From IMG/VR virus record IMGVR_UViG_3300009182_000042, positions 20,053 to 84,052 of that record: DNA of 64,000 bases. One strand, 5' to 3'. Positions within the stretch are counted from its first letter, which is position 1. Each line of letters starts with the position of its first letter. The translations under genes and the position numbers were made by a program. The notes under the pieces are model-generated. The model was not told the DNA's origin. It did no database searches and saw nothing but the letters and a program-made list of their open reading frames with translations. Positions 888 to 59,566 of the stretch are shown here, piece after piece. The stretch is from a virus.

Positions 888-895
888 GATAAATA
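888..895 (+). promoter_or_regulatory. T4-like late promoter (GATAAATA)
   Basis: Variant of T4 TATAAATA. The same TAAATA core recurs upstream of most structural genes; followed by AGAGG SD and ATG 919. Confidence 0.6.
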
Positions 896-9900: not shown

Positions 9901-12900
9901 GCCAACGGTACATACTATGTTGCTGTGACACCAACACCAACTTCAAGTGCAATAACATTGGTTACCACAAGCGGCGGCTCAACAAGCCCAACCACAACAT
10001 CTGGTACTCCAAGCGGTTTGACATTTGCGTTTAGTTTGGTTAATCCATTGACATTCACCTACACATTAACAGCACCGTTTGGATTATCTTCGTTTAGTGT
10101 GTACTACGTGAACGGCATCACCAACTCAAATGGCGCTGCCAGCACAACATTTAGTGTGACAACTACTGCATCTGGAACATCTCCAGTGGCAGTAAATTCT
10201 ATTACAGGACAAAACGTGTCGCTGTATGCGGCTGGATGGGACCATGTGGTTCCAGGTAGTGTTATCAATAACACTACTGATTTGACATCAGCATACATTA
10301 TAGAACCATCAATCAGCTATACAGGTCCAGGTTACACAGGCGTAGCAAGATCATTGGCAACCAGTGCCAGTTATGTGGGCGTTGCTTACGGTTCTGGAAA
10401 CTATGTTGCTGTATCAACGGGCGCTACCACTACACAATATAGCACAACTGGTCGTGCATGGGCCAACGGCGGCGCATTACCAAGTGCAACATCTTGGAAT
10501 GCTGTAACATATGGCGGAGGCCAAGGCGCACAAGCCACAGTTACAGTTGGTGGTTTTGGCGGAAGCGGTGCAGTATTAACAGCAGTTGTGGTGGGCGGCC
10601 AAGTAACAGGCATTACTATTGTCAACGGTGGCTTCAACTATAACACAGTTCCAACAATCACCATTACTCCAGTCAGCGGAGGATCAGGTGCTTCGGCAAT
10701 CTGTACAGTTCTAAATGGTACTATCACTACAGCTACCATGGTTATTAATGGTTCTGGTTATGCTAGTGGTGCTACAGTTGCAGTGGTTACCAGTGCAGTT
10801 TCCGCAGTTACCACTGTCACACGAGGACAAAATTACGGATACAACAGCACAACTCCATCTGTTACATTAAGTGCTCCATTTAGCGGCACAGTATGGAGCA
10901 GTGGTGGTAGTGGCACAAGTGGTAGTTACTACTATTTTGTGAATACTGGTGTAACTCCTAACGTAACCAACTACTATCAGGCCACAAGTACAGGTACATT
11001 TACCACAAGCGGCCCAACACATACCACCGGTACAGTGGCCAACAACACAGTAAACTTGTTGTATGTGGGTACACAAGCCACAGTAACACCTACATTAACC
11101 AATAATGGTATCAGCAGTTATACAGTAACCGTAGCTGGATTTGGATATTCAACTGTTCCTACAATTACTATTGCAGATTTGTCAGCAAGATTTGTGGCAA
11201 TCAGCACAACAACAGCTGGTGCAAACGTGGCACCTACTGGAGTAGCAGGCGCATGGAATTCTATGACATTGCCAAGTGCAGGTTATAATGCAATTGCATA
11301 TGGTCTAGGACAATATGTTGTAGTAGGCGGTACAGCCGGTGCAGGTATTATAGCAAGCAGTAGCGATGGTATCAACTTCAATGCACGAACTGTTCCAGCA
11401 GGTGCATCAGCTCAGTATTTTAGTGCTGTGGCATACGGTTCTACAGGAACAGGCGCATCTGGTAACACGTCAACTGGATTGTTTGTAGCCATACCTTTGT
11501 ATGGTAACACACCTGTTACAAGTACAAACGGTACCACATGGGCGATTCCACAAACCGCAGGCGGATCCAATGTGACTTTGCCGGCTTCACTGGCATGGAG
11601 CGGGATTGCATATGGTAATGGTCGTTTTGTAGCAATTGCCAGCAATAGTTCTAGCATAGCTTACAGTCTTAACGGTGGCGGCGCTTGGAACTTGTCCACT
11701 GTTGCTGGAGGTTCTGGACTGCCAGGTGTTTACAGTTGGTCAAGTATTGCTTATGGTGAAGGTCAATTTGTGGCCATAGCCGCAAACAGTGCTGTAAGTG
11801 CTACCAGCTGGGACGGTATCAACTGGACTATACAGACATTACCAGCAACACAAAACTGGAGCAGTGTGGCATTTGGTAACCCACTGGCCGCAACTATCGG
11901 ATATAACCCGCTGTTTGTAGCAGTTGCAAATACTGCTGGAACATCTGCGGCTGTGATACATACTGGCGCAACGCCACAAGGCCGTGTCAAAGTAACTAGC
12001 AATGCAGTTAGTGAAATACGTGTGATTGAGCCAGGAAGTGGATTTGCAAAAGGTATTGTTACTGCAACAACCGCAACCACAAACGTTATCACAGCTGATA
12101 ATATTGAAAACTTGTCAGCAAATCAACCAGTTGAGTTTAATACAGTAAGTGCAGGTGGGTTGGCTTTACAAACAACTTACTATGTGATTGGTTCCAGTAT
12201 TACAACAACCTCAGCACCAGCCGGCACGTTCCAAGTGGCTACCACATCGGGTGGCACAGTACCAGTGACATTGACAACCACTTCACCAACCGGTATGACA
12301 TACACAACTGGTCCTATAGTTACTATTACTGATCCAAACCGTATTAATGCGGCATTGGTCAGAGTGCGTACAGGTGATGGAGTGCTTGGTAACCCTAGCT
12401 TTCCTAACAGAGGTGCTGCCAATGCAACTGCAACAGCAAACACAGTAGGTGACGGATATAGCGACATCTATCAGACCAGCACATTTATCAACATAAGCAA
12501 TTTGTATACTTTACCAACTGCTGGTGCAAACGTGCAATTTGCATCAATATCAAATGTTTGGTACAAATTGGTTGCAGTGACAAACTTGTTGGGTATTCCA
12601 GGCAACTACACAGCCACATTCCAGATAAATCCAGGACTTAGCGTGTATCTTGCTCCTACCACTGGTAATTTGATTACCACAAGATTGAAATACAGTCAGG
12701 TTCGCTTGACTGGACATGATTTCTTATATATCGGTACTGGAAACCAGACACAGACAAATTATCCGTATGTCAATGTAAGTAGTGCAGTTTCTGCCAATCA
12801 AACATTGGGCAGTGTGGGTGGCCGTGTGTTCTTTACAAGTACAGACCAGGACGGCAACTTCAACGTTGGAAACTTGTTTGGAGTACAGCAATCAACAGGT

Positions 12901-13263
12901 ACTGCTAGTTTGAACGCCAGTGCGTTTAACTTGGCTGGATTACAGAGTTTGACACTGGGAGCGGTATCAGTTGGTGTGGGATCCGCTACTATTACAAGTT
13001 TCAGTACTGATCCGTACTTTACTGCTAATAGTGACAACATTATTCCTACGCAGAAAGCTATCAAGAGCTATATCACAGCCCAGATAGGTGGTGGTTCTAG
13101 TAGCTTGAACGTAAATACATTGACAGCGGGCGTGATATTCATTGGTAATAATCAAATATATAACACTACCGGATATCAACAGATATACGTAAGCAGTAAA
13201 ATGCTATTCACAGGTGGAATTGATGGGGCACCAGTTGCTCTTACATTCTTCGCACAAAGATAA
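919..13263 (+). CDS. Giant (4114 aa) virion structural / tail-fibre-like adhesion protein
   Basis: T/G/S/A-rich. About seven N-terminal W..xxY..GDxVxYGG..Y repeats (CBM5/12-like), repeated GGL..TTYYV...FQVA modules, a beta-helix-like section (STYVQNCTMFG...SIVSNDYT), and C-terminal WSxIAYGxGxFVA / SxDGxxW propeller-like repeats. Confidence 0.75.
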   Translation: MAEYKLGRIKFVYQGTWTGSSTYVVDDVVSVGGKTYICIVSNTSSAVFATDLASSYWSLVADGTRWTGTWANATYYQLGDQVLYGGIVYQATTAHTSATATATLTATGFTVSGGTATLTYASQVVQPFLVGATITLAGFTPTQTSGTVNTVNTTFTVVTCTTTQVTFALTGTYTVSVLGTVAGASQLGLELNQANWTAFASNINYLSTWSVNTRYKVNDLVTYGGYTYIATTAHVSANTTALGLEQDQAKWSTFNPGLSYQGAWSGSSVKYRLNDIVKYGASLFICTTAHVSSATFSTSNFATFVNGLQYVPGGSNAWSSATTYVTGDIVTYGGNLYVASQIASNQNPTTATTYWNLYTGGFSYQGAWTGVTSYKIGQVVNLGGYTYLALADNTQNVLTLTGTTVTTNIITLSASTTALVANLPVVFASTVGGLTGSQTYYVIGSSITANTFQVASISGGVSPVTLSTTTGQSVSVTTQPQPPFATYWSRLNSGIRYNPTTGTYNAVSATNVTGTGTSATFNVTASKTTYSVTLASGGSGYSSTGGSNTIKIVGTSLGGLSPANDITITITGQSSGAITTFTSVGYAVTWSTAVSYVLGDVVYFGSNSYICVSGHVSASGNKPDADTVGAYWNLLAAGNESAVLTVTGDLFYYGSTGPTRLPIGTDGQVLRVNSNTPSWAYYGQINNIVYVSSATGVDTLATSQGTTLDKPWRTIQFACQQVENGYLNLNLGNLIQINKQFLLKEVNNFVLYNYTFNITATTTSTNLITVGGSSTIAQTTTTNLYSNMPVVFNVTAGGLTAGTTYYVIGSSITSTQFQVATNPSTSGAQTAVTLSTTSTANLGQYVYSQSKTERDTGFIVDGIIFDITHTGNSKTIANALTYFNSAGTGYTSGVLAYDISPFVKALNYLSTLITSNVGANTAPGTNYQTTISSAVTVTGASGTGAIATITFSAQSYAYNVGSQITVASVSPAGYNGTYVVLSSTTTSVSYANTTTASYISGGTVNYTRATQQINTTYTAEAAALTRIPVLVGLVTAPLSLGNTTPITGILANATTTISVKTGTYNEVLPIVVPSYTVVYGDELRSSTVQPAVANITLANDKPKTIVALTRLQTQLGNLLQNTSITGSTGNTQYLSVSASTGAASVATLTFAAQTTAPFSVGQYITVSGFTSSAAGYNGSYAVTACTTTTVSYANATTASTSGSPIVSGQNTQLSVADVGSSTAVNTINTFTSSINNMIFNGIAQVPAISITTVTGYNSSFLPGHSTGVTQITSNYGFIKAELTAFMNTNYSSVWSSLGVAGQQIYLLQIQYILDGMQYDMAYGCNNQSIINGSSYYSLNINQIPLVNQPAYLATFQRLQAIVGQIVRAQSVAATAGNGATQTTGSDAGVAPAAFASARIADVIYWFTNGNANSTVNTITGSISGTTLTVSSQTSAVAPGTLLTGTGINGMYIVNQISSSAGAQAATTYSSGGGNGTSTFVVASATGIAAGQFITGTGIPAGTYVASTYSSGSTTVPIANYFGSPVTFTLQASGAYLFYPANTAGTYTLSITGGTGTAFTSLSTFTPVNSGAYTLVGSNALQLAYTQLQARATEIASDTQVFVAKYNQQYNISATLTSRDAGLIVNALSFDVLFTTNFNTIAVGRAFNRSNTSAQAVVNNVNNQLYATTAAINFIGFKAKMIAAAGGQVQAQTLIDDIIYRINGQATTTLTTATVSTNVLTASSTSAMAVNQPVSFTNLPANINTTVTSTLAAFAGSITATATVALTGVGTITSNGGGSFTFGTAQSAGTFYVGQVLTPTGSLSGITWTGYTAGTSYVVSVTNGTSTVTLTTVTGNVLTVTQGTASGITFNTYLATITTTGLVIGSAIALSSTGFGGLTTATTYYVIGFGPTASASCALSATAGGNSVALSNGSGTMIAQTTTNLLNLTGYVGTLGITVGQQCYFSGGTYAGISPYQLYYIVSASGTGITVSTTSGGSSVTISTVSSGSMTLTVNAAGGIWANNQYYINTIPSSTTFTITNSYKSGTAYTITNTASSMTATATFGPTATVLYYNSPMIHGSVTYNGTLTTVNAAEIIRANVGFLSAEATAYVAASYGGSISSTAATTNLITTSGNHNFTVGDPVQFSGSVVGGLSAATTYYVLTVNSNTTFTVSLTQVSQGTQTAVALTNTSSAFTVTYFNTAQSYITSFLNGMIYDLQYTGNSRSLRAVELYNNAVGSSTISNMFLVRNGSGLRNMTLSGITGTLSAANAYGTKRPTGGAYTSLDPGFGPNDTSVQILTRSTYVQNCTMFGYACVGAKVDGALHSAGNKSIVSNDYTCVIGDGIGWWNTGTGSLAELVSVFNYYSYSGYLAELGGRIRATNGNSSYGTYGVLAEGTDTFETPIYANLNNRAAAATITTVVTDSTTQILRFEYGNAGINYTNSVPTVNGSGYNAVAFQDEFRDAAVFETRLIDPNNTGLTGGTSYVSAVNVGQTNANGVGYQLIAAADTALTGGYNGMKVQITAGTGVGQVANILAFNNASKYAQIIRPTFATLPVTASTNATAASSSSAFIATYAGRYPTLVAPVMGSGSYVAGMYLTSSGTVTAGTYITAINTGSITSASIASSTFSSTGSIGASITGAGTAANPWIATITGMSSTSSFVVGAQITATNGTGTLYGSTPTSVIVASVPSTTSITYSVIGGTIPTTGTVTNIQQTMLSGSAFANLLPGMVLSGGSVIASYVAGQVTATGTALATATMTGTISTNTLTLATFTVGSIYTVQVGQYVAQISGIPAGTYITAVNPATGVITINTTLYGAVSGSNSTYTAGGAGTYALTANSFTTVTGAPTTGTQYLLNTAQTQIAATVTGTQNTLTVASNASLYNTMPLYLGTAVAPLSGVAISATGAISFTSTTTALPANTQVVISGANVGTGIVATGTFFVAASPSPTTTGVTLLTALSGGTTISTTAGTVVTSGNLSSVNIGSSGNLTFTALGAALPAGTPVVISGSNGGGGTIANGTYYVAVTPTPTSSAITLVTTSGGSTSPTTTSGTPSGLTFAFSLVNPLTFTYTLTAPFGLSSFSVYYVNGITNSNGAASTTFSVTTTASGTSPVAVNSITGQNVSLYAAGWDHVVPGSVINNTTDLTSAYIIEPSISYTGPGYTGVARSLATSASYVGVAYGSGNYVAVSTGATTTQYSTTGRAWANGGALPSATSWNAVTYGGGQGAQATVTVGGFGGSGAVLTAVVVGGQVTGITIVNGGFNYNTVPTITITPVSGGSGASAICTVLNGTITTATMVINGSGYASGATVAVVTSAVSAVTTVTRGQNYGYNSTTPSVTLSAPFSGTVWSSGGSGTSGSYYYFVNTGVTPNVTNYYQATSTGTFTTSGPTHTTGTVANNTVNLLYVGTQATVTPTLTNNGISSYTVTVAGFGYSTVPTITIADLSARFVAISTTTAGANVAPTGVAGAWNSMTLPSAGYNAIAYGLGQYVVVGGTAGAGIIASSSDGINFNARTVPAGASAQYFSAVAYGSTGTGASGNTSTGLFVAIPLYGNTPVTSTNGTTWAIPQTAGGSNVTLPASLAWSGIAYGNGRFVAIASNSSSIAYSLNGGGAWNLSTVAGGSGLPGVYSWSSIAYGEGQFVAIAANSAVSATSWDGINWTIQTLPATQNWSSVAFGNPLAATIGYNPLFVAVANTAGTSAAVIHTGATPQGRVKVTSNAVSEIRVIEPGSGFAKGIVTATTATTNVITADNIENLSANQPVEFNTVSAGGLALQTTYYVIGSSITTTSAPAGTFQVATTSGGTVPVTLTTTSPTGMTYTTGPIVTITDPNRINAALVRVRTGDGVLGNPSFPNRGAANATATANTVGDGYSDIYQTSTFINISNLYTLPTAGANVQFASISNVWYKLVAVTNLLGIPGNYTATFQINPGLSVYLAPTTGNLITTRLKYSQVRLTGHDFLYIGTGNQTQTNYPYVNVSSAVSANQTLGSVGGRVFFTSTDQDGNFNVGNLFGVQQSTGTASLNASAFNLAGLQSLTLGAVSVGVGSATITSFSTDPYFTANSDNIIPTQKAIKSYITAQIGGGSSSLNVNTLTAGVIFIGNNQIYNTTGYQQIYVSSKMLFTGGIDGAPVALTFFAQR

Positions 13264-13284: not shown

Positions 13285-13635
13285 ATGGCAACAGGACGAT
13301 TTACAACACCACAAACAGCAGGGTCAGTACAGGTAACCAACTCAGGTTACACTGTGCTGTATACTGTACCCAACAACACTTATAGCATTTTTAATGTGTC
13401 GTTAACCAATTCTAGTGCTAGTGCAGTTACAGTAAAACTGGCAATATGCACAACAGCCAACGTGGCATCCCCATTAGCATCAGACTTCATTGAAAGTTTG
13501 ACTACTATTGTTGGGTATGGTGTATTTGAACGTACAGGTTTGGTAATGCAGGCAGGTTTGAACATTGTGTGTCAAGCCAGCGCGGCATCTACTGTAAACG
13601 CAACTGTGTACGGTATTGAAACATCAACACAATAA
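13285..13635 (+). CDS. Small virion-associated protein
   Basis: GGAG SD; beta-rich 116 aa ending VYGIETS; lies between fibre genes. Confidence 0.6.
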   Translation: MATGRFTTPQTAGSVQVTNSGYTVLYTVPNNTYSIFNVSLTNSSASAVTVKLAICTTANVASPLASDFIESLTTIVGYGVFERTGLVMQAGLNIVCQASAASTVNATVYGIETSTQ

Positions 13636-13659
13636 TAGGAATACAAGAGAGAATAAATT

Positions 13660-15603
13660 ATGGCACGTTATAACAGCTCAGCAGTTGCTACACTAAGTTC
13701 GGCAACGGTTATCACAACTCCAAGTCAGGGGTTGTTGACAGAATTGGTCGGATCACCGCCTTATGCGGTGCAAATTCCCGATCCAACTATTTGGTATGGT
13801 CAAACACAGACCTACTATAATAACTCAGGAGGTGTTGTAACACTGAATACTCCTGCCGGTACATTTATTGGTCCAGGAAGTTCAGGCAGTTCAAGTTTAC
13901 AGATGCCCAATCAAAGTGTTGTGGTATTGGCATCGGACACTACCAAATATGTTATCTCATCATTCGACGGCGGCCCAACTTATGCTCAAACTGGTAACGG
14001 TAACAGCAGTAGTTATGCATTGTTGTTGAACGGTGACTTGGTGCAAAGTGCATCAACCATGAACTTGGTCAACACCAACACCACAACTGTCAACGCATTT
14101 GGCGCAGCCACAAGTATCAATATTGGTGCTCCATTCAGCACAACAACCTTTAACGGCAGTGTGTTCGTCAAAGGCGGCTTGGTGCAAGTCAACTCCAGCA
14201 GTGTGTTGGTAGAAGATAAAAATATTGAAATTGGTTATATCAACCCTATCAGCTACGGCGGCGGCACAATAACAACCATCGGTGGATCCATTTCCGGTTC
14301 AACCACATTTACCAGTATTAGTGGTACAAAGATTGCCGCAGGTTATACTGGCACAGTGTCTGGTGTGAGTCAATTCAGCACCAGCGGTGCTGGCACTGGT
14401 GCAACATTCAACATCACCATAAGCGGTGCTGGCACAACATACACTGGTGTTACCACAATTACGGTGGTCGCCGGCGGCGTGGGTTATGCACTGGGTGATA
14501 CTGTAACCATTGGTGGTAGTGTGTTTGGCGGCTCAAGTGCCAACGGTACCAACAACCTGACATTCACAATCAGCAACGTGAACGCCAGTCCTTGGTATGC
14601 CACAATTACAGGCATAACCAACACCACCAACTTGGTGGTAGGCAGCGCAATCAGTGCCACAAACGGTACTGGTAGTTTTGGTTCTGGTAATACTTCTCAG
14701 TTGGTTTTGAGCAATCTAAGTAGTACCAGCATACAGATTGTGGTCACAGGCGGCACAACGCCAGTAGCGGGTACAGTTACCAATATTACACCGGGTTCCA
14801 ACGATGCTTATGCCAATGACGGTGGTATCAAGCTGTATGGCTCAACAAACAAAACACTGATTTGGTCGCTGAATTCAGTTGGACCAACCAGTGGCAATAC
14901 TGGCCAACCATCATGGACCACCAGCGAAGGCTTGTCTTTCAGAAGTGCCACTGCCAGTAACTTTGGTATCCAAACATACCCTGGATCGGGCACTGGTTTT
15001 AACATATTAACCAACGGTGTAACCAACGGCACAGTCAACATTGCTACTGATGCAGTAACTAATAACCTGTTCACAGCTGGTACTGCAAACACCATTGGTG
15101 CATCTGGATCTGGCACAACTACTATTAGAAATACCACTTTAACATTCAGCGGTACCACTCTAAATGCAACTGCCATGACCAACTTCAACGGTAAAACTAC
15201 TGGTTGTTTCATGTATATTGGTAGCCTGGCTATTGGTACAACCAACAATCCAGGTGACGGTCAGATCAATGCAACCAGCAACATCATAGCGTATTACTCA
15301 GACGACAGACTAAAAACACGATTGGGCACCATTGAAAATGCTCTTGAAAAATTGGAAACACTAACTGGTTTCTACTATGAAGCCAACGAAACAGCACAGG
15401 CACTGGGTTACAAATCAGTGCGTGAAGTAGGTGTGTCAGCCCAAGATGTGCAAAAGATCCTACCAGAAATTATCAAGCCAGCACCTATTGACGCTAAGTA
15501 CATGACAATTCAATACGAAAAGTTAACACCATTAGTAATTGAAGCAGTTAAGGAACTGAGTGCCATGGTAAAAGAGTTGAAAGCCAAGATTGATAAGGAA
15601 TAA
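13660..15603 (+). CDS. Tail fibre with C-terminal intramolecular chaperone (Peptidase S74) domain
   Basis: YYSDDRLK...IENALEKLETLTGFYY...GVSAQDVQKILPE...YEKLTPLVIEAVKEL followed by a coiled coil is the S74 autocleaving chaperone signature. Confidence 0.85.
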   Translation: MARYNSSAVATLSSATVITTPSQGLLTELVGSPPYAVQIPDPTIWYGQTQTYYNNSGGVVTLNTPAGTFIGPGSSGSSSLQMPNQSVVVLASDTTKYVISSFDGGPTYAQTGNGNSSSYALLLNGDLVQSASTMNLVNTNTTTVNAFGAATSINIGAPFSTTTFNGSVFVKGGLVQVNSSSVLVEDKNIEIGYINPISYGGGTITTIGGSISGSTTFTSISGTKIAAGYTGTVSGVSQFSTSGAGTGATFNITISGAGTTYTGVTTITVVAGGVGYALGDTVTIGGSVFGGSSANGTNNLTFTISNVNASPWYATITGITNTTNLVVGSAISATNGTGSFGSGNTSQLVLSNLSSTSIQIVVTGGTTPVAGTVTNITPGSNDAYANDGGIKLYGSTNKTLIWSLNSVGPTSGNTGQPSWTTSEGLSFRSATASNFGIQTYPGSGTGFNILTNGVTNGTVNIATDAVTNNLFTAGTANTIGASGSGTTTIRNTTLTFSGTTLNATAMTNFNGKTTGCFMYIGSLAIGTTNNPGDGQINATSNIIAYYSDDRLKTRLGTIENALEKLETLTGFYYEANETAQALGYKSVREVGVSAQDVQKILPEIIKPAPIDAKYMTIQYEKLTPLVIEAVKELSAMVKELKAKIDKE

Positions 15604-16124
15604 TGATGTCAGATCAAGACAATAATCAGCCAGTCGATCCAAAAGCAATCCAACCGCAGACCATTACTGGCGGTACTATTTCGTTCGCCAACATTACAGC
15701 TGAAATTGGGCAGGGTAACAGCAATGTGGGTTTGCAATTTTTGAACACCTATGTTGCACCCAGTCTAACTGGATATTTTCAAAATGCTCCCAACGGTGGC
15801 AACTGTGTGGGCTACAATAGCAACTGCGGGTCAACTCCACGTCCCACATTCCGTAGCACATATCCTGACATGAACGAATTTAGGAACTTAACTTATTTCA
15901 ATAGTCAAAACAAGGGACAATGTAACAACGGTAATTGTACCAACAACAACTGTAACTGCGGAAATATCGCCTGCTACAACTGTACTATCAATGGTCGTAT
16001 TAACTGTCAGAATTGTGACGGACAAGCATGGCTACAAGCTAATTGTAACTGCGCCTGTACAATGAATTGTAATTATACCAGCTACAGCGTGGCTTGTAAT
16101 TGCAACTGCAATTGTAATTGTTAA
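15603..16124 (+). CDS. Asn/Cys-rich protein; candidate radical-SAM substrate and candidate fibre-tip protein
   Basis: 19 Cys, 17 of them in residues 107-173; ends CNCNCNCNC; TAATG overlap with the fibre gene; directly upstream of an rSAM/SPASM gene. Confidence 0.7.
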   Translation: MMSDQDNNQPVDPKAIQPQTITGGTISFANITAEIGQGNSNVGLQFLNTYVAPSLTGYFQNAPNGGNCVGYNSNCGSTPRPTFRSTYPDMNEFRNLTYFNSQNKGQCNNGNCTNNNCNCGNIACYNCTINGRINCQNCDGQAWLQANCNCACTMNCNYTSYSVACNCNCNCNC

Positions 16125-16141
16125 TACACTAAAGGTAACCC

Positions 16142-17599
16142 ATGAAATTTGAAATATTAGCATCACGGAACAAAGACGACGAGAAGATATTTTATTACGA
16201 TAACCAAACAAACACGCTGAGTGACGAAACTGGGTTTGTTTATGAGTATCCCCATGCTCTGGCCAGTGTTACACATACTCACGTACAAAAACCCTATGTT
16301 AGTTTTGATAAAGATCGTCCTCTTAAAAAATCTAAATCCGCACGTATAGTAAAAATTCAGATGGGGCTTAGTTGCAATTACAGTTGTGACTATTGCAGTC
16401 AGAAATTTGTAGAACGTCCAAAAGAAACCAACGCCAAAGATATTGAAAATTTTATGGAACTGTTCAACAACCTGGAGTTTGATGAACAACAGGGACTAAA
16501 GGTGGAGTTCTGGGGCGGCGAGCCGTTTGTGTATTGGAAAACCATGAAGCCCCTGGCTGAAGCGATTGCAGATCGTTTTGAAAGCTGGCAGAAAAAACCC
16601 ATGTTCAGTGTGATTACTAATGGTAGTCTATTGACTGAAGAAATCTGTGCATGGTTATACAGCATGAATTTCAGTATAGCTATCAGTCATGATGGCCCTG
16701 GTCAGCATGTGCGTGGTCCAGATCCATTTGATGATCCAAAAAAGCGTGAAATTGTGTTGGACCTTTATCAGATTCTTAGACCTTTAGATCGTATCAGTTT
16801 CAACAGCATGCTCAACAGCAAGAACACCAGTCGCAAAGAAATTTATGATTGGTTTGTGGAATTCACCAACGATCCAAGTGTTGTACTGGGCGAAGGTGCA
16901 TTTGTTGATGCATATGATGCAGATGGTTTAGAAAACTCAATGAAAACCAAAGCTGAACATTTTGCTTTTAGACAACGTGCTTTCGGAGAAATTTATGGCT
17001 CCGCTGGTGATATTGGATTCACCGGCATCCTACAAAAAGTAGATAATTTTACTGAAGCTGTGCTTACACATAAAAATGCAGAATTTTTAGGGCAGAAATG
17101 CGGTATGGACGACGAGGGTGTTATAGCATTTGACCTAAAAGGCAATGTTATTACCTGTCAAAACGTCAGTGCATTGGAGATTGGCAAAAACGGTGAATCG
17201 CATCTGGGTGGAAACCTTGCAGATCTAGACAGTGTGGAAATCAAAACTGCCACTCACTGGAGCAATCGTAAAGAATGTAGCGGTTGCCCAGTGCTACATA
17301 TTTGTCAAGGGGCTTGTATGTTCCTAGACGGTGAATATTGGACTGCCAGTTGCAACAATGCATATAGTGATGCTATTCCCCTGTTTGCCACCAGCATTAT
17401 GAAAATAACCAACGGGTATATTCCTATGACTGTAAAAAGTGAAGAATTGCCCTTAGAAAGACAGGATATCTTTGGGACTATGATGAAACACCAAGAATGG
17501 ACACCAAAAAAGATAATCCCCATCAAAGTTGTAAGCGAAAAAGTAGCTGTTATTGACAATGTCGAAGTCTACGGACAAAGCACTGTGATAAATAGTTAA
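16142..17599 (+). CDS. Radical SAM enzyme with SPASM domain (peptide/protein maturase-like)
   Basis: CNYSCDYC (CxxxCxxC, residues 78-85), FWGGEP, ITNG, ISHDG; SPASM pattern C320-x13-G-x4-C339 ... C379xxC382x5C388x3C392...C404. Confidence 0.92.
   Translation: MKFEILASRNKDDEKIFYYDNQTNTLSDETGFVYEYPHALASVTHTHVQKPYVSFDKDRPLKKSKSARIVKIQMGLSCNYSCDYCSQKFVERPKETNAKDIENFMELFNNLEFDEQQGLKVEFWGGEPFVYWKTMKPLAEAIADRFESWQKKPMFSVITNGSLLTEEICAWLYSMNFSIAISHDGPGQHVRGPDPFDDPKKREIVLDLYQILRPLDRISFNSMLNSKNTSRKEIYDWFVEFTNDPSVVLGEGAFVDAYDADGLENSMKTKAEHFAFRQRAFGEIYGSAGDIGFTGILQKVDNFTEAVLTHKNAEFLGQKCGMDDEGVIAFDLKGNVITCQNVSALEIGKNGESHLGGNLADLDSVEIKTATHWSNRKECSGCPVLHICQGACMFLDGEYWTASCNNAYSDAIPLFATSIMKITNGYIPMTVKSEELPLERQDIFGTMMKHQEWTPKKIIPIKVVSEKVAVIDNVEVYGQSTVINS
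17587..17594 (+). promoter_or_regulatory. Late promoter (GATAAATA)
   Basis: Lies at the 3' end of the rSAM gene, upstream of AAGGAG SD and ATG 17622. Confidence 0.5.
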
Positions 17600-17621
17600 A
17601 GAGAGCACAAGGAGCCATAAA

Positions 17622-18602
17622 ATGAATTTGTATATTTCCACACATTGTCGTAGATATTATGCTGTTGAAGCAGTTGTTACCTCTGAAGGGATCGAATATA
17701 AAACTTATCCAGCATATCTAATATCAGAACTGAAAAAATACTGGGCCTCCTTGGCAAACAGTGGTATTCCGGGTACTTTGATTTTTGATGATCAACATCC
17801 TATGATTACCCCTGATATGAAACCACTGTGGACTACAGATACTGTTGCTGTGTATGATGTGCAAGTTGCAAACAACACCTATACCAGCGGAGTTATAGAT
17901 TTTCAATTGGATATAAAAAATAATAATGATTATAGCGATCATGCACAATACGATATATATTCTCCAGGGTGCCTGGCTGTAACAACGGTATTTGACGAAC
18001 ATAGAGACAAACATAGCAATGATATTATGAGCTATAGCGCAATGACCAAAGCACAGACAGTATCCAACGGTATATCTAGAGGCTACATGATTCCGATACA
18101 TAACTCTGTGGCACAAACATCTCATTCAAGAATGAAGCCGCATGTGCATCAGCGTTTGACAGGCAATGCACCTATGATCAGCATCATGGTTCCACTAGCA
18201 GACATGGACCCAACAGATTGGGAGATTGTGTTCACTGTGGCAGAAGAAGGACTGCTACGTGTGAACGGCAATACTGTTGAACCAATTCCAGTGGGATACC
18301 TATTGAATCATATGCCTAAAGTATGGTTTAAGAAAAACACTGCCACCGTAAACACTAATAATTTTGTTGATTTAGAATTTTATTTAGGCACTGCTAGCGG
18401 AAGCCCGATTACTGGCCACGATGCAACAGTGTATATCAAAACCACTGGCGGCCAACTCAATAAAACTCAAGTGCGAACAGTTAACGGAGAAGGTAAAGTG
18501 AAACTGATTTCAAATCATTTGGAATCAGGCGATGTTATCAAAGTAAGTGTTGGCTTTCAATACTATTCCGGCACAGATGATTGTATTGTTACAGTCAAAT
18601 AA
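17622..18602 (+). CDS. Hypothetical protein with a probable C-terminal Ig-like beta-sandwich
   Basis: Strong SD. The last ~90 aa alternate like beta strands (ATVYIKTTGG...GEGKVKL...GDVIKVSVGF). Confidence 0.55.
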   Translation: MNLYISTHCRRYYAVEAVVTSEGIEYKTYPAYLISELKKYWASLANSGIPGTLIFDDQHPMITPDMKPLWTTDTVAVYDVQVANNTYTSGVIDFQLDIKNNNDYSDHAQYDIYSPGCLAVTTVFDEHRDKHSNDIMSYSAMTKAQTVSNGISRGYMIPIHNSVAQTSHSRMKPHVHQRLTGNAPMISIMVPLADMDPTDWEIVFTVAEEGLLRVNGNTVEPIPVGYLLNHMPKVWFKKNTATVNTNNFVDLEFYLGTASGSPITGHDATVYIKTTGGQLNKTQVRTVNGEGKVKLISNHLESGDVIKVSVGFQYYSGTDDCIVTVK

Positions 18603-18608
18603 CATGGC

Positions 18609-19775
18609 ATGAAACTGGCCATAATAGGCGATGGCAAAGCCAGTGCCATAGCAATACTAACAGTTCTAGATCTAGTAAAAAATAAAAATTACACAGATCT
18701 AGAACTTTTTATTTTGCACGATACTATACGTGCCAACGACCAGTTGGCAACCGCTGCCAATCCTGTGTTAAATCGATTGCTCAAAAATGTGATTAACTTT
18801 AATGATCACGCGGACATTAAAAAAATACAAGGCAGCATGAGACTAGGAATCAGCCACACGTGGCACGATGACTCGTTGGCCAAATGCTGGATACAATCTC
18901 CAAGTCCGGGTCTACATTTTAATGGTAATATTTTCTTTGATTTTGTAGTAGAGTCAGTATGTAATCTTTATGCGAATGTCACTTATCAAACTGGGAAAAT
19001 GCGAAAATTAAATCAGTCTGATCAGTATGCCACGGTGTCACTGGACGAAACTGAATTGCTATTTGATTATGTAATAGACACAACCGGATTAGATCAGACC
19101 AATTATACAGTACCGGACTTTGCTCCAGTAGACAAAATAATAACAGCCGAAACTAAAAATTCCTATAATGAATCGCATACATCGATTACATTCCATGACA
19201 ATGGCTACAGTTTAGGAATACCACTAGTAGGCAAGAAAGTTGTATATTATTTTTATAACAGTAAAATTATCAATGTAGATCAAGCAGTGGACAATTTTAA
19301 TCAAATTGCCAGTTTAAATACCGATCCTCAATTGAAAGATTTCAATCCCAGATATAAAAAATACAGTATAAATGATAGAATCATATATGCAGGACCCGGT
19401 TTGTTCTATATGGAGCCAATACAGGCATTGCCCTTTCACTTTTATCAAGATACAATAAAAATAATATTGTCTAATCTCATGTTAGAAAATTATAACAAAT
19501 CGTTAGACATAGAAGCTAATCAAGGTTATATTACCAACATGGAATTAAAACAAGACTTGATTGCACTTACCTATCATAATAAAAATAATTATTCATCAGA
19601 ATTTTGGAAACAAGCTAGAGATAACAGTAAAAAATACTTGTCGCAGTCAGAGCATTTTAAAAAATTTGTAGATAATTATAAAAATACAGGTAATTTAGAA
19701 TATGATTTGCATGACAACAAAGTGGCCGTGAAATATATCACAGGCTTGGGCATAGATCTAGATAAGATCTACTAA
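18609..19775 (+). CDS. Flavin-dependent tryptophan-halogenase-like protein (divergent)
   Basis: N-terminal Rossmann-like KLAIIGDGKAS, FDYVIDTTG, NGYSLGIPL at the position of the halogenase WxWxIP motif, FYMEPIQA, and Y.SEFWK. Confidence 0.6.
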   Translation: MKLAIIGDGKASAIAILTVLDLVKNKNYTDLELFILHDTIRANDQLATAANPVLNRLLKNVINFNDHADIKKIQGSMRLGISHTWHDDSLAKCWIQSPSPGLHFNGNIFFDFVVESVCNLYANVTYQTGKMRKLNQSDQYATVSLDETELLFDYVIDTTGLDQTNYTVPDFAPVDKIITAETKNSYNESHTSITFHDNGYSLGIPLVGKKVVYYFYNSKIINVDQAVDNFNQIASLNTDPQLKDFNPRYKKYSINDRIIYAGPGLFYMEPIQALPFHFYQDTIKIILSNLMLENYNKSLDIEANQGYITNMELKQDLIALTYHNKNNYSSEFWKQARDNSKKYLSQSEHFKKFVDNYKNTGNLEYDLHDNKVAVKYITGLGIDLDKIY

Positions 19776-20207
19776 ATCAAATACAGTTTGCAATTTGGTA
19801 CGTATAGTTTTACTGCTAAAACTGTTTCGTAACCCTTGATGTAGGGGTTTAGGTGCGCGGTCGATCACGGTCCACGCCCATCCCAGGTGTTCATCGCTCA
19901 ATATGGGAACAAATTCCGTTTCAACCACGCACAGATATGTGTGAAAATTAAACACACGGTCGTTGGATACAAATGTTTCTAACGGAATAGTTTTAAGTAG
20001 TGATGGTATACTGCCAATTTCTTCTGTAATTTCACGTTGAAGTCCTTGCCATGGAGTTTCGCCATGCACATTGGTACCACCCACTAAACCCCACGTGCCT
20101 TCATGTTTGCCTGATTTCTTTTGCAATAGCAAAAATCTCTTGGTGGCCTTGGCATAGAACAGCGCACCACTACAAACTATTTGGTCTTTTATAATACGAT
20201 TTTCCAT
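19758..20207 (-). CDS. Nudix hydrolase
   Basis: Complete Nudix box G-TNVHG-E-TPWQGLQ-REITEEIG. Confidence 0.9.
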   Translation of the reverse strand: MENRIIKDQIVCSGALFYAKATKRFLLLQKKSGKHEGTWGLVGGTNVHGETPWQGLQREITEEIGSIPSLLKTIPLETFVSNDRVFNFHTYLCVVETEFVPILSDEHLGWAWTVIDRAPKPLHQGLRNSFSSKTIRTKLQTVFDLVDLI

Positions 20208-21655
20208 TGGTCAGATCTATATTCACCTTCAAAGCTCTTGACCCATGAAACACCGTTCCATAAGTATTGAACTCCAGTGTATATATTCGTTTGCCAGACC
20301 ATGGTGTTGGTTTCTTGAGCACTGTGAAATATCACTTGCCATGCGCTTCCGGTATATTCTATAATATCGTTGGCTTTTGCCACTAAACTGCCCCATGTGA
20401 TTGCAGGATCAGTGTTATCTGTACTGCCTATATCTTCTATTACGAGATAACGAGTGCCAGCGGCCACTGTACCAAGGTTATATGTTAGTGGGTTAATGAT
20501 GGCATCAAATGTACCAGGGCTGGCAGGCCTATTGGATGATGCGGCATTGTAATGTGACACGTCGTAACTCAGATAACCACTGCTGTCAATGCCAGTGTTT
20601 GATGTGAGACTATCGGGATTATAATTAACAGTGAGTTTGGTTGAATCCAACGAATTGATAGCAACAGTGCCTATAACGTAGGTGCCATTGGGTTGTTGCA
20701 AATACAATGTACTACTGCCGGCAGCATATTGTCCTGGATATTGACTAAACAACACGTTCCAGTCTATGGCATTTCCGGTAGGTGTGGGTATGCCTAAAGT
20801 GGGCTCCATGGGGTTGAAGCCATCTGTTTGATTTAGCAAAACAGCTTGACCATTGTATACCTGTATGGTATAACCTGTAATAGTTGTGGTCTCTGTGGCC
20901 AACAGCGGATTAAAAGCAGTGGTGCCACCGTCGCTTTGTACAGCAGGATCAATACCCAACCCATTTTCATATCCAGTTGGATATGTGTTGGATCCGTTGT
21001 ACACACTGGCAATGATTTTTGTAATAACTCCAAGATGTTTGACTTTGACTGGGGGACTGATCCATATGGGGCTATCAAGTGTTAGGCTAGCAACTTCAAT
21101 AGGAGTGTCGTTGCCCACTGGAACTTGTCTACTGCTCCAATTTATCGCCCCCAAATTCAATACACTTATACTGGTCCAATCAATGTAGTTGTCTGTGGTT
21201 TGCAATTCCAAACTGGGATTGAACAACACTAAAATTTGCTCTAGGATCTGTAATTTTTGTTCTGTGCTACTGCTCCAGATGTCGCATTTCATGGTCAATT
21301 TGTATGGCGTTGGCATCAGTCGTTCCACAGTATAGTTACGACCTTGCCCTGTGGTATATTGCCCACTGTTATTAACGTCACGCTCTCTAAAATTCAATTT
21401 GCTAACAAATGATTGATCTGCCAAACGATCTCTATCAAGATCCAAACCGCTGATATAGATGCTTATTCTTGGCACACTATTGACCACGTTTTCGCTGTTT
21501 TGTCTAATGATGCTGGCAACTGCTCGATCCGGATCACCGTACATGACAGGCACTTGATGCAAACTGCCGTCGCCGTATTTCACAACAAAATTACTAAACG
21601 CACGAATAGTTTGTGTAAGATAACGTCTTACCTGACCATCATAAAAAAACTGCAT
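20189..21655 (-). CDS. Tail sheath stabiliser / tail completion protein (T4 gp15-like) with C-terminal extension
   Basis: FFYDGQVRRY...FSNF...VPVMYG...PRIS...PTPYKL...QILEQILVLFNP resembles the gp15 family; adjacent to neck genes. Confidence 0.7.
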   Translation of the reverse strand: MQFFYDGQVRRYLTQTIRAFSNFVVKYGDGSLHQVPVMYGDPDRAVASIIRQNSENVVNSVPRISIYISGLDLDRDRLADQSFVSKLNFRERDVNNSGQYTTGQGRNYTVERLMPTPYKLTMKCDIWSSSTEQKLQILEQILVLFNPSLELQTTDNYIDWTSISVLNLGAINWSSRQVPVGNDTPIEVASLTLDSPIWISPPVKVKHLGVITKIIASVYNGSNTYPTGYENGLGIDPAVQSDGGTTAFNPLLATETTTITGYTIQVYNGQAVLLNQTDGFNPMEPTLGIPTPTGNAIDWNVLFSQYPGQYAAGSSTLYLQQPNGTYVIGTVAINSLDSTKLTVNYNPDSLTSNTGIDSSGYLSYDVSHYNAASSNRPASPGTFDAIINPLTYNLGTVAAGTRYLVIEDIGSTDNTDPAITWGSLVAKANDIIEYTGSAWQVIFHSAQETNTMVWQTNIYTGVQYLWNGVSWVKSFEGEYRSDQWKIVL

Positions 21656-23110: not shown

Positions 23111-23130
23111 TATTTATCGCCAGCTAAATA
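23111..23130. promoter_or_regulatory. Back-to-back divergent late promoters
   Basis: TATTTATC at 23111-23118 (GATAAATA on minus) and CTAAATA at 23124-23130 on plus, inside the 42-bp gap between the divergent neck genes. Confidence 0.6.
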
Positions 23131-34801: not shown

Positions 34802-34811
34802 TAAATATATC

Positions 34812-59558: not shown

Positions 59559-59566
59559 GATAAATA
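59559..59566 (+). promoter_or_regulatory. Late promoter (GATAAATA)
   Basis: Upstream of GGAG SD and ATG 59586. Confidence 0.6.

What the first reader, a model, noticed from the sequence alone, without database searches (positions are those of the whole stretch)
13660..19775. RiPP-like radical-SAM cassette inside the late tail-fibre operon: possible enzymatic stapling of a virion protein
Seen: an S74 tail-fibre gene overlaps (TAATG) a 173-aa Asn/Cys-rich gene, followed 17 bp later by a radical SAM/SPASM gene, then an unknown gene and a halogenase-like gene. All are co-oriented, with no terminator visible between the late promoter at 888 and the rSAM gene. Established: a Cys-rich small ORF next to an rSAM-SPASM enzyme is the layout of sactipeptide/ranthipeptide clusters (AlbA, CteB/SCIFF, PapB, NxxcB), which form Cys-to-carbon thioethers. 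Inference: there is no transporter or peptidase here and the cassette is in a structural operon, so the product may be a thioether-crosslinked fibre-tip/adhesin component rather than a secreted natural product. I know of no characterised phage virion protein matured this way.
Basis: partly seen in the sequence, partly recalled or inferred. Interest (0 to 1): 0.93.

Follow-up and report, generated by a model that had tools for sequence, protein, structure and literature searches.

The report
Radical-SAM enzyme paired with cysteine-ladder fibre-tip protein
A freshwater T4-like phage encodes, right after a tail-fibre gene, a small protein packed with Asn-Cys pairs and an iron-sulfur "radical SAM" enzyme, and because the same pairing recurs beside or inside tail fibres of many unrelated phages and prophages, the enzyme very probably modifies (most likely cross-links) a host-binding fibre tip.

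Summary
In detail: all five co-oriented ORFs sit at the stated coordinates. They are an S74 fibre, a 173-aa Asn/Cys-rich protein, a radical SAM enzyme with a 7-Cys SPASM motif, a 326-aa partner and a degenerate halogenase-like gene.

The link between enzyme and Cys-rich protein is far beyond chance.
- A Cys-rich-domain gene touches the rSAM gene in 40 of 40 full-length viral relatives.
- In bacterial genomes, 56 of 58 prophage-type loci with enough flank have an upstream protein ending in an (Asn-Cys)n ladder. The background is 10 of 5176 other ORFs.
- In the reverse test, 56 of 70 viral ORFs ending in NCNCNCNC have the rSAM nearby, against 1 of 50 controls.

The ladder lies on tail-fibre proteins, before self-cleaving S74 or Hint domains, or on small proteins encoded after S74 fibres. 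This supports a virion fibre-tip reading.

The chemistry is not shown. Thioether cross-linking is an inference from the nearest characterised enzymes (QhpD, CrpC, PapB/NxxcB type). In 24 of the 40 closest loci no fibre gene is adjacent. I found no paper describing this system.

This scan has already found and followed up the same system on other DNA. I reached the same reading independently.

The parts
13660..15603 (+). Tail-fibre protein (647 aa) with a C-terminal S74 self-cleaving intramolecular chaperone domain (residues 547-604)
   Evidence: Pfam PF13884, E 9.5e-10. 14 of the 17 PHROG hits are tail families. Conserved in L003-L013 directly before the Cys-rich gene.
15603..16124 (+). 173-aa Asn/Cys-rich fibre-tip-type protein, the presumed substrate. 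It has a conserved N-terminal module (about residues 19-55) and a Cys-rich domain.
   Evidence: ORF and TAATG overlap. 79 relatives. Adjacent to the rSAM in 40 of 40 viral loci. Some relatives are fused to an S74 chaperone domain.
15915..16121 (+). Cys-rich domain proper (residues 105-173) with a terminal CNCNCNCNC ladder
   Evidence: Invariant in 82 sequences: C107, C135, N137, C138, Q145, C156, C165. A further 22 columns are at least 90% conserved (blocks).
16142..17599 (+). Radical SAM enzyme (485 aa) with a 7-Cys SPASM motif and a small N-terminal beta-sheet domain
   Evidence: Pfam PF04055. phrog_1802, E 4.5e-63. AF2 model with pLDDT 83.1. Foldseek top hits are anSME, CteB, ChlB, TigE and SuiB.
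16373..16396 (+). CxxxCxxC motif (C78, C82, C85) for the SAM-cleaving [4Fe-4S] cluster
   Evidence: Sequence; invariant in 19 of 19 aligned relatives.
17099..17353 (+). SPASM region with seven invariant Cys (C320, C339, C379, C382, C388, C392, C404)
   Evidence: Same 3 + 4 pattern as described for CrpC in PMC13692751 (passages).
17622..18602 (+). 326-aa partner protein with a probable Ig-like (Big_1-type) C-terminal domain; a recurrent third member of the cassette
   Evidence: Homologous to RSP15 ORF047 (E 5e-9). Follows the rSAM in L003-L013, L043 and L044. A family HMM finds it in 121 of 257 sources. It follows the ladder gene directly in 18 of 32 printed prophage loci. The Ig-like reading is only a lead.
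18609..19775 (+). Halogenase-like flavoprotein homologue (388 aa) with degenerate motifs
   Evidence: Pfam PF04820, E 6.9e-15. PrnA/RebH, E about 6e-5. Alignment. Present in L005-L013, L043 and L044 but not in L003 or L004. A bona fide family member sits in the cassette of L046 (E 3.4e-92).
17587..17594 (+). GATAAATA box 27 nt before the start of the 326-aa gene (possible late-promoter box; weak)
   Evidence: The count in the window is not above chance.

Best explanation
The 173-aa Asn/Cys-rich protein is a small fibre-type (probably trimeric) virion protein. It is made late in infection together with the S74 tail fibre encoded just before it. The adjacent radical SAM/SPASM enzyme modifies its Cys-rich domain in the infected cell before assembly. 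The most likely reaction is a ladder of thioether cross-links from Cys sulfur to a carbon of the neighbouring Asn or Asp residues; NCNC reads as overlapping NxxC units. This would harden or lock the host-binding tip. The 326-aa Ig-like protein, and perhaps the degenerate halogenase-like protein, would act as partners or scaffolds, or as further tailoring enzymes. Shown here: the gene anatomy; the near-obligate two-way genomic coupling of this rSAM family with C-terminal (Asn/Asp-Cys)n ladders; and the location of such ladders on tail-fibre proteins and before self-cleaving S74 or Hint domains. Inferred: that the ladder is the substrate, that the product is in the virion, that the reaction is thioether formation, and that the protein is trimeric.
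For: (1) Forward coupling. A Cys-rich-domain ORF touches the rSAM gene in 40 of 40 full-length viral relatives: upstream in 16 and downstream in 24. In GTDB genomes, 56 of 58 loci with at least 3 kb of upstream flank have a same-strand upstream ORF with CxCxC in its last 40 residues or just before a Hint domain. The background is 10 of 5176 other ORFs. (2) Reverse coupling. Of 120 viral loci fetched only by a DNA pattern for NCNCNCNC, 70 carry it within 12 residues of an ORF end, and 56 of these have an rSAM homologue in the fetched flank. Only 1 of the other 50 does. (3) Fibre link. An S74 fibre lies directly upstream in the window, in L003-L013, L017 and L030 (Pfam for L030 and L051). The window-type domain is fused to PF13884 in 9 of 79 relatives, with the ladder ending at the S74 junction. 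The ladder lies just before a Hint domain in Achromobacter phage JWF gp028 and in L065, L135 and L136. The RSP15 'side tail fiber' ORF048 ends in an NC motif three genes before the rSAM. 5 of 10 ladder proteins hit tail-fibre PHROGs. (4) Enzyme type. It has CxxxCxxC plus a canonical 7-Cys SPASM motif. Its best NCBIfam similarities are peptide or protein Cys cross-linkers such as PapB, QhpD and geopeptide maturases. Its fold is nearest to anSME, CteB, ChlB, TigE and SuiB. (5) Acceptor residues. Between alternating Cys in 114 unique tails, the residue is Asn in 299, Asp in 42 and Ala in 29 of 402 positions (the sample is partly biased by the pattern used to fetch it). Asn and Asp are the acceptors in QhpD (PMC7876137, passages) and, as I recall, in PapB and NxxcB. 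(6) Precedent for whole proteins as substrates: QhpC/QhpD (PMC7876137) and CrpA/CrpC (PMC13692751; abstract and passages). (7) Weak hint of expression. Exact contigs from three lake-water RNA libraries cover parts of the fibre, Cys-rich, rSAM and 326-aa genes, and one bridges the fibre/Cys-rich junction at 15487-15791.
Against: No chemistry was or could be tested. The rSAM scores far below every curated cut-off (PapB 73.4 against 340; QhpD 67.6 against 453; CrpC-type TIGR04463 47.3 against 525; anSME 53.1 against 349), so its reaction type cannot be assigned by family. The best structural match, anSME, oxidises Cys or Ser to formylglycine and makes no cross-link (the function is recalled). No RRE-type family was detected; the N-terminus is only a three-stranded sheet. 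In 24 of the 40 closest viral loci the Cys-rich domain is the N-terminal part of a ~300-aa protein with a hydrophobic C-terminal extension. Those loci hold 2OG oxygenases and no adjacent fibre gene, so not every family member need be a fibre tip. The AF2 monomer model of the 173-aa protein is uninformative (pLDDT 48.7). No virion proteomics data were available. A Cys ladder on a trimer axis could instead be a metal site. RNA-library contigs do not prove transcription.
Confidence: 0.6

Rival explanations
1. The rSAM does modify the Cys-rich fibre-tip protein, but by a reaction other than thioether formation. Candidates are anSME-like oxidation of Cys to formylglycine, epimerisation, C-C cross-linking, or another Cys/Asn-directed radical reaction.
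For: The top Foldseek hit is anSME (4k36, E 7.4e-12, TMq 0.52). TigE (cyclopropyl synthase), SuiB (Lys-Trp C-C) and ChlB rank close behind. The best PDB sequence hit is TigE 8vpo (E 2.4e-11; identified through PMC10878394 in the listing). All curated thioether-maturase models are missed by wide margins. JWF's depositors named the homologue an anaerobic sulfatase-maturating enzyme.
Against: By reading the sequence, the substrate has no C/S-x-P/A-x-R sulfatase motif (motif recalled). The strict Cys alternation with Asn or Asp matches the donor and acceptor residues of known Cys-Asp/Asn thioether enzymes. The seven SPASM Cys follow the 3 + 4 pattern reported for the thioether-forming CrpC.
Confidence: 0.2
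2. The (Asn-Cys)n ladder is mainly a metal- or iron-sulfur-binding element on the three-fold axis of a trimeric fibre, analogous to the His-x-His iron sites of the T4 gp37 needle (recalled). The rSAM's role would then be indirect, for example cluster or cofactor maturation, and no peptide cross-linking would occur.
For: Alternating residues in a beta-strand point to one side, so a CxCxC ladder next to a trimerising S74 chaperone domain could line a fibre axis. The authors of the CrpA paper suspect a metal-binding role for their Cys-rich protein (PMC13692751, Discussion passage).
Against: It does not explain why a SPASM-type peptide-modifying rSAM is coupled almost obligately to the ladder. Nor does it explain why 2OG oxygenases recur between the ladder gene and the rSAM (5 of 10 tested ORFs above the Pfam cut-off). 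Metal binding and cross-linking are not mutually exclusive.
Confidence: 0.1
3. The cassette makes a non-virion product, such as a secreted or intracellular RiPP-like peptide or protein (for example an anti-competitor or host-takeover factor). It merely sits in the variable region next to fibre genes.
For: 24 of 40 close viral loci have no fibre gene beside the pair and lie among 2OG oxygenases, an Asp/Asn-hydroxylase-like gene and a B12-type rSAM. Earlier authors read such cyanophage arrays as secondary-metabolite genes (PMC2938197, passages; PMC12801897, passages).
Against: No leader peptidase or exporter lies in the window cassette. Ladders sit on long proteins with tail-fibre PHROG matches. 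They also sit before S74 and Hint self-cleaving domains of fibre proteins. The gene is translationally overlapped with a fibre gene.
Confidence: 0.08

Closest known systems
QhpC / QhpD / QhpG maturation of the gamma subunit of quinohemoprotein amine dehydrogenase (PMC7876137; abstract and passages read)
   Same: A SPASM-type rSAM (QhpD) installs several Cys-to-Asp/Glu thioether links in a small protein subunit rather than in a secreted peptide. A flavoprotein with a halogenase-like fold (QhpG) joins a ternary complex, promotes the cross-linking and then modifies a Trp. The window has the same trio of gene types: a Cys-rich protein, an rSAM and a halogenase-like flavoprotein. TIGR03906 is the second-best NCBIfam hit (E 8.3e-19).
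   Different: The score is far below the family cut-off (67.6 against 453). No leader, QhpE-type protease or ABC exporter is present. The substrate is a phage fibre-type protein with many more Cys. The window's flavoprotein homologue has degenerate motifs.
CrpA / CrpC of Methanococcus voltae (TIGR04463 family; Dieter et al. 2026, PMC13692751; abstract and passages read)
   Same: A SPASM rSAM with three [4Fe-4S] clusters (3 + 4 Cys in the SPASM part) installs ranthionine thioether links on a large Cys-rich protein encoded beside it.
   Different: The window enzyme is not a TIGR04463 member (47.3 bits against 525). CrpA repeats a 17-residue motif with C-x-x-Q/D rather than an (Asn-Cys)n ladder. 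It is archaeal and cellular. The word 'phage' does not occur in the main text. Its supplements list further Cys-rich proteins and were not visible to me.
PapB/PapA and NxxcB/NxxcA ranthipeptide systems (NCBIfam NF047865 for PapB; NxxcB chemistry recalled, not read here)
   Same: Best NCBIfam similarity, spanning the rSAM and SPASM parts (residues 71-394, E 1.8e-20). These are Cys-to-Asp/Asn beta-thioethers, and NCNC can be read as overlapping NxxC units.
   Different: The score is 73.4 bits against a cut-off of 340. Those substrates are short leader-bearing peptides that are exported. Here the substrates are proteins of 66-616 aa, many of them tail-fibre-like.
Anaerobic sulfatase-maturating enzyme anSME (PDB 4k36)
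   Same: Best structural match (Foldseek E 7.4e-12). It acts on a protein substrate and lacks an RRE.
   Different: It makes formylglycine in a sulfatase motif (recalled) that the Cys-rich protein lacks. TIGR03942 scores 53.1 against a cut-off of 349.45.
S74 (endosialidase-type) intramolecular chaperone fibres, and the His-x-His iron ladder of the T4 gp37 tip (both recalled)
   Same: Some relatives of the Cys-rich protein end in an S74 domain, as trimeric fibres and spikes do. A ladder of alternate ligand-type residues at a fibre tip resembles the gp37 needle.
   Different: No enzyme is known to mature those tips. Here a dedicated rSAM is coupled to the ladder.
Cyanophage flavin-dependent halogenase VirX1 (PDB 6qgm; function recalled)
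   Same: The profile of the cassette's halogenase-like family matches VirX1 (E 2e-52). Both are phage-encoded.
   Different: The window's own copy matches Trp halogenases only weakly (E about 6e-5) and lacks the two signature motifs. VirX1's natural substrate is, as far as I recall, unknown.

Membership tests
Radical SAM superfamily (PF04055) | [quoted passage not shown] | tested here: met
   C78, C82 and C85 are invariant in 19 of 19 relatives. PF04055 scores 36.2 bits against a cut-off of 29.5.
SPASM subfamily of radical SAM enzymes | C-terminal 7-Cys motif (Cx9-15Gx4C ... Cx2Cx5Cx3C ... C; motif recalled) for two auxiliary clusters, and the SPASM fold | tested here: met
   C320-x13-G-x4-C339, then C379-x2-C382-x5-C388-x3-C392 and C404, all invariant. 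The fold is nearest to anSME, CteB and SuiB. Pfam's SPASM model itself was not among the hits.
PapB-family ranthipeptide maturase (NF047865) | Whole-protein score at or above the curated cut-off (340 bits) | tested here: not met
   73.4 bits.
QhpD (TIGR03906) | Whole-protein score at or above the curated cut-off (453 bits) | tested here: not met
   67.6 bits, and only residues 70-187 aligned.
CrpC-type TIGR04463 maturase | Whole-protein score at or above the curated cut-off (525 bits) | tested here: not met
   47.3 bits.
Anaerobic sulfatase maturase (TIGR03942) | Score at or above the cut-off of 349.45, and a substrate with a C/S-x-P/A-x-R motif (motif recalled) | tested here: not met
   53.1 bits. 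No such motif was seen on reading the 173-aa sequence.
Sacti-/ranthipeptide (thioether RiPP) systems | Enzyme-installed Cys S-to-carbon thioether bonds in the product | not testable with these tools
   Needs mass spectrometry of the co-expressed or virion protein.
Canonical RiPP gene cluster | Short precursor with a leader, an RRE on the maturase or a partner, a leader peptidase and an exporter | tested here: not met
   No peptidase, transporter or RRE family was found among the proteins of 13285-21655. The substrates are proteins of 66-616 aa. The rSAM N-terminus is a three-stranded sheet.
Peptidase_S74 intramolecular chaperone fibre (PF13884), for ORF 13660-15603 | C-terminal S74 domain above the Pfam cut-off | tested here: met
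   39.1 bits against 22, at residues 547-604.
Flavin-dependent tryptophan halogenase (PF04820), for ORF 18609-19775 | Pfam score above the cut-off | tested here: met
   55.3 bits against 21; only profile positions 150-422 of 458 are aligned.
Flavin-dependent tryptophan halogenase (PF04820), for ORF 18609-19775 | GxGxxG FAD motif and WxWxIP motif (motifs recalled) | tested here: not met
   The window has G-D-G-K-A-S and G-Y-S-L-G-I-P. The bona fide cassette members in L046 and L059 have GGGTAG and GW[MV]W[RK]IP.

The most novel reading that the evidence does not exclude
Many phage lineages (T4-like myoviruses, siphoviruses such as JWF, Ackermannviridae-type RSP15, and numerous prophages of freshwater Beta- and Alphaproteobacteria) enzymatically 'staple' the distal tip of a receptor-binding fibre. 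A dedicated radical SAM enzyme would build a thioether ladder across an (Asn/Asp-Cys)n tail, possibly between the three chains. 2OG oxygenases and halogenase-type flavoenzymes would then decorate it. This would be RiPP chemistry applied to a virion. It would also give a natural substrate to the long-unexplained oxygenase and halogenase gene arrays of cyanophages.
Probability: 0.45. Interest if true: 0.9.

Novelty: new variant of a known kind. Interest (0 to 1): 0.82.

Why it matters
No enzyme-installed cross-link of RiPP type is known on a phage particle. Ten full-text searches found no paper linking radical SAM enzymes to tail-fibre maturation.

If the ladder is cross-linked, three things follow.
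- It is a new way for phages to build rigid, protease- or redox-resistant host-binding tips.
- It adds a new and large substrate class for SPASM enzymes. The rSAM family has 253 representative clusters at E <= 1e-30.
- It points to a likely function for rSAM, 2OG-oxygenase and halogenase cassettes in the 'host recognition' regions of aquatic phages. These have so far been read as auxiliary metabolic or antibiotic genes (PMC2938197, PMC12801897, PMC7029224; passages only).

Two cultured phages, Achromobacter phage JWF and Ralstonia phage RSP15, carry the system, so it is directly testable.

Tried and rejected
- Megablast of 13660-19775 against 50,697 phage records gave no match.
- tblastn of the 173-aa and 326-aa proteins against the same records gave no match. 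BLAST's low-complexity filter may hide the first.
- A search for longer fused forms of the 173-aa protein found only 2 proteins, of 329 and 334 aa.
- The AF2 monomer of the Cys-rich protein with an 82-row alignment had mean pLDDT 48.7, so I did not use it for any fold claim or fold search.
- ESM Atlas look-ups gave only leads. For the 326-aa protein, Big_1/Invasin Ig-like clusters scored 0.82-0.86, below the 0.9 level. For the C-terminal extension of the ~300-aa variant (L022), only unnamed viral clusters appeared.
- TATAAATA (the T4 late consensus, recalled) occurs once in the window, elsewhere. GATAAATA counts are not above chance. I make no promoter claim.
- The terminator scan was not above shuffles.
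- RNA-library contigs show presence in RNA libraries only. Parts without cover mean nothing.
- I considered a phylogeny of the rSAMs against substrate architecture. I left it out because the identity bands already separate the types: window-type domain partners have rSAMs at about 55-93% identity, and simple ladders at about 25-48%.
- I considered catalytic-proximity profiling (ranthi- versus sactisynthase, mentioned in PMC13692751). I could not do it because the residue list is in supplements and papers I could not see.
- The supplements of PMC13692751 list other rSAM-associated Cys-rich proteins. They were closed and might include phage proteins.

Full report
**What is in the window.**

The window belongs to an 84-kb contig. 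Its sequence is held by freshwater and lake metagenomes. It carries T4-type tail genes: a gp15-like sheath stabiliser on the minus strand at 20189-21655.

On the + strand, a 4114-aa fibre-like ORF (919-13263) and a 116-aa ORF come first. The five ORFs of the finding follow, exactly as described:
- **13660-15603.** A 647-aa fibre with a C-terminal Peptidase_S74 chaperone domain (PF13884, E 9.5e-10; 14 of its 17 PHROG hits are tail families).
- **15603-16124.** A 173-aa protein with 19 Cys and 35 Asn, ending in CNCNCNCNC.
- **16142-17599.** A radical SAM protein.
- **17622-18602.** A 326-aa protein with no family match.
- **18609-19775.** A Trp_halogenase-like protein.

The fibre stop and the next start overlap as TAATG. 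The rSAM start follows after 17 nt. No convincing terminator lies in between: 22 consensus sites against 17.3 +/- 4.8 in shuffles. The 'late promoter' box GATAAATA is present at 888 and 17587, but its count is not above chance.

**The enzyme.**

The 485-aa protein has CxxxCxxC at C78, C82 and C85. It has seven further Cys in the canonical SPASM spacing, all invariant in 19 relatives.

Its best NCBIfam similarities are Cys cross-linking peptide or protein maturases: PapB (E 1.8e-20), QhpD (8.3e-19), geopeptide, Nif11-type and CcpM. Every score is far below the curated cut-off, so it belongs to none of the named families.

An AF2 model (pLDDT 83.1) is nearest to anSME, CteB, ChlB, TigE and SuiB. 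All of these are SPASM enzymes that act on peptides or proteins. The N-terminal 30 residues form a confident three-stranded sheet and not a recognisable RRE.

An exhaustive HMMER search finds 253 representative clusters at E <= 1e-30 and 784 at E <= 1e-10. This is a distinct, medium-sized family.

**The Cys-rich protein.**

It is not simple low-complexity sequence. It has 79 relatives. An 82-row alignment shows a defined domain of about 70 residues with invariant C107, C135, N137, C138, Q145, C156 and C165. Another 22 columns are at least 90% conserved. A conserved N-terminal module lies before it.

It occurs in three architectures:
- Alone, at 125-175 aa, as in the window.
- Fused to a C-terminal S74 chaperone domain. 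PF13884 is precomputed for 9 of the 79 relatives. The ladder ends exactly where the S74 domain begins, so self-cleavage would leave the ladder as the new C-terminus.
- As the N-terminal part of ~300-aa proteins with a hydrophobic C-terminal extension.

The S74 fusion argues that the domain folds as a trimeric fibre element. The function of S74 domains is recalled and was not tested here.

**Coupling of the enzyme with Cys ladders.**

*Forward test, viral contigs.* Forty full-length rSAM relatives (58-93% identity) were found in IMG/VR. All 40 have a Cys-rich-domain ORF touching the rSAM gene, upstream in 16 and downstream in 24.

*Forward test, bacterial genomes.* The scan kept 80 loci, mostly prophage-like regions of freshwater Beta- and Alphaproteobacteria, including Burkholderia paludis MSh1.
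- 56 of the 58 loci with at least 3 kb of upstream flank have a same-strand upstream ORF with CxCxC in its last 40 residues or just before a Hint domain.
- 5 of the 22 loci with shorter flanks have one.
- The background is 10 of 5176 other ORFs in the same loci.
- The two exceptions are L122, whose neighbours look by eye like an ABC exporter and an HlyD-type protein, and L130.

- In 70, the motif lies within 12 residues of an ORF end. Of these, 56 have an rSAM homologue (tblastn E < 1e-5) in the fetched flank, and several of the other 14 loci are only 1.5-3.5 kb long.
- Of the 50 remaining loci (11 internal, 39 not in an ORF), one has the rSAM.

*Tail composition.* In 114 unique tails the longest run has 3-7 alternating Cys. 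The residue between them is Asn in 299, Asp in 42 and Ala in 29 of 402 positions. 62 of the 114 tails end in Cys. This sample is biased by the fetching pattern.

**Link to fibres.**

- An S74 fibre gene lies directly before the Cys-rich gene in the window and in L003-L013, L017 and L030. That is 13 of the 16 'upstream' viral loci.
- Pfam confirms the S74 domain for L030 and for the 776-aa fibre of L051, in a different phage type.
- In Achromobacter phage JWF, the fibre-type protein gp028 carries the ladder immediately before a Hint domain, and the rSAM lies two genes downstream. The same ladder-plus-Hint layout occurs in L065, L135 and L136.
- In Ralstonia phage RSP15, the annotated side tail fibre ORF048 ends in an NC motif. 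It is followed by a homologue of the window's 326-aa protein (E 5e-9), an unknown gene and the rSAM.
- Of 10 ladder proteins from prophages, 5 hit tail-fibre PHROGs, 1 hit a structural-protein PHROG weakly, and 4 hit nothing.

*Against a universal fibre reading.* The 24 'downstream' loci have no fibre gene nearby. They sit among 2OG oxygenases, an Asp/Asn-hydroxylase-like gene and a B12-type rSAM.

**Other cassette members.**

An HMM grown from the 326-aa protein finds relatives in 121 of 257 sources. I did not check it for drift towards generic Ig-like domains. In 18 of the 32 prophage loci that I printed, it directly follows the ladder gene, which is the usual place of a fibre assembly or tip protein.

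Between it and the rSAM lie genes of about 200 aa. Of 10 that I tested:
- 5 are 2OG-Fe(II) oxygenases above the Pfam cut-off;
- 1 is a 2OG-Fe(II) oxygenase below the cut-off;
- 1 is a second rSAM;
- 3 are unknown.

A bona fide Trp-halogenase homologue (E 3.4e-92) sits in the L046 cassette. The window's copy and its close relatives are diverged, and the window's copy lacks both signature motifs.

**How it most likely works.**

The near-obligate two-way coupling makes the ladder the most probable substrate of the rSAM.

Known SPASM enzymes that act on Cys-rich proteins make thioethers:
- QhpD makes three Cys-Asp/Glu links in QhpC. It is helped by the halogenase-fold flavoprotein QhpG in a ternary complex (PMC7876137; abstract and passages).
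- CrpC makes ranthionine links in CrpA and has the same 3 + 4 SPASM Cys pattern (PMC13692751; abstract and passages).

Asn and Asp next to every Cys fit such donor-acceptor pairs. I therefore favour a thioether ladder that locks the fibre tip. The 326-aa protein, and perhaps the degenerate flavoprotein homologue, would act as scaffolds.

All of this chemistry is inference. Formylglycine formation (anSME-like), other radical reactions, or a metal-binding role of the ladder remain open.

**Expression.**

Exact contigs from three lake-water RNA libraries cover pieces of the fibre, Cys-rich, rSAM and 326-aa genes. One contig spans the fibre/Cys-rich junction. DNA carry-over cannot be excluded, so this is only a hint.

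**Novelty.**

Ten full-text searches found no paper that links a radical SAM enzyme to tail-fibre maturation or to Asn-Cys ladders. The nearest statements, of which I read passages only, are these:
- Cyanophage oxygenase and halogenase arrays were predicted to make secondary metabolites (PMC2938197).
- rSAM cassettes were noted in pelagimyophage host-recognition clusters (PMC7029224).
- An rSAM maturase was listed as an 'antibiotic synthesis gene' of a cyanomyovirus (PMC12801897).

NCBIfam release 20 has no model for the enzyme, the Cys-rich protein or the 326-aa protein.

**Earlier findings of this scan.**

After my own analysis, I looked up earlier findings. The same system has been found and followed up on other genomes several times, with the same reading. 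Those notes gave me the CrpC and QhpG papers, which I then read. They are AI notes and are not independent evidence.

**Verdict.**

- This is a new variant of a known kind, namely SPASM protein maturation applied to phage fibre tips.

Tools not available: the look-up of encoding contigs and complex prediction.

Noticed in passing
window 919-13263 (+): A 4114-aa fibre-like ORF rich in Thr/Ser/Gly/Ala, with many repeated modules. Relatives in L005 (1673 aa) and L008 (1929 aa) share its C-terminal end, but their lengths differ greatly.
   Followed up: no
window 888-895, 17587-17594, 34800-34807, 59559-59566 (+) and 23111-23118 (-): GATAAATA boxes, several lying a few to about 30 nt before gene starts. 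There are 5 matches against 2.94 expected, so the count is not significant. The T4 consensus TATAAATA occurs only once (50685-50692, minus strand).
   Followed up: partly
L015, L016, L021-L029, L031-L042 (e.g. L022 9490-15313): In these viral loci the rSAM is followed by a ~300-aa protein (Cys-rich domain plus a hydrophobic C-terminal extension). Next come several 2OG-Fe(II) oxygenases, an Asp/Asn beta-hydroxylase-like gene (PF05118) and a B12-binding radical SAM gene. This is a much larger tailoring set than in the window.
   Followed up: partly
L002 5679-7130; L065 5727-7256; L135 5239-6453; L136 1857-3479: Fibre-type proteins in which the Asn-Cys ladder is followed at once by a Hint (intein-like) domain. 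Self-cleavage should expose the ladder as the mature C-terminus, which parallels the S74-fused variants.
   Followed up: partly
L122 7794-9158 and upstream: An rSAM homologue (39% identity in the best segment, query residues 60-442) lies in a non-phage context. By eye the neighbours are ABC-exporter-like and HlyD-like ORFs, and there is no ladder ORF. This may be a conventional secreted RiPP relative of the phage family.
   Followed up: no
L128 7479-7972; L229 2048-2634: Two tandem small ORFs (72-98 aa), each ending in a Cys ladder. They lie just before the rSAM in L128 and about 1.9 kb upstream of it in L229, so one enzyme may serve several substrates.
   Followed up: no
L146, L154 and L198 (e.g. 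L146 11423-11662); also L214 and L240: ORFs of 67-79 aa end in a ladder after a conserved Tyr/Asp-rich stretch. In L146, L154 and L198 they are paired with much more distant rSAMs (27-29% identity). In L214 and L240 no rSAM was found in the fetched flank. The system therefore extends beyond the close family.
   Followed up: no
window 19758-20207 (-) against 18609-19775 (+): A convergent NUDIX hydrolase gene overlaps the 3' end of the halogenase-like gene by 18 nt.
   Followed up: no
window 13285-13635 (+): A 116-aa ORF with no family match is conserved between the giant fibre gene and the S74 fibre gene in L003-L006 and L008-L013 (51-95% identity). In L007 the contig starts inside the fibre gene.
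   Followed up: no
window 13354-18345: Exact contigs from lake-water metatranscriptome libraries of three studies cover parts of the cassette. Run X3, a DNA run not marked as the source, holds 0.94 of the sampled words.
   Followed up: partly
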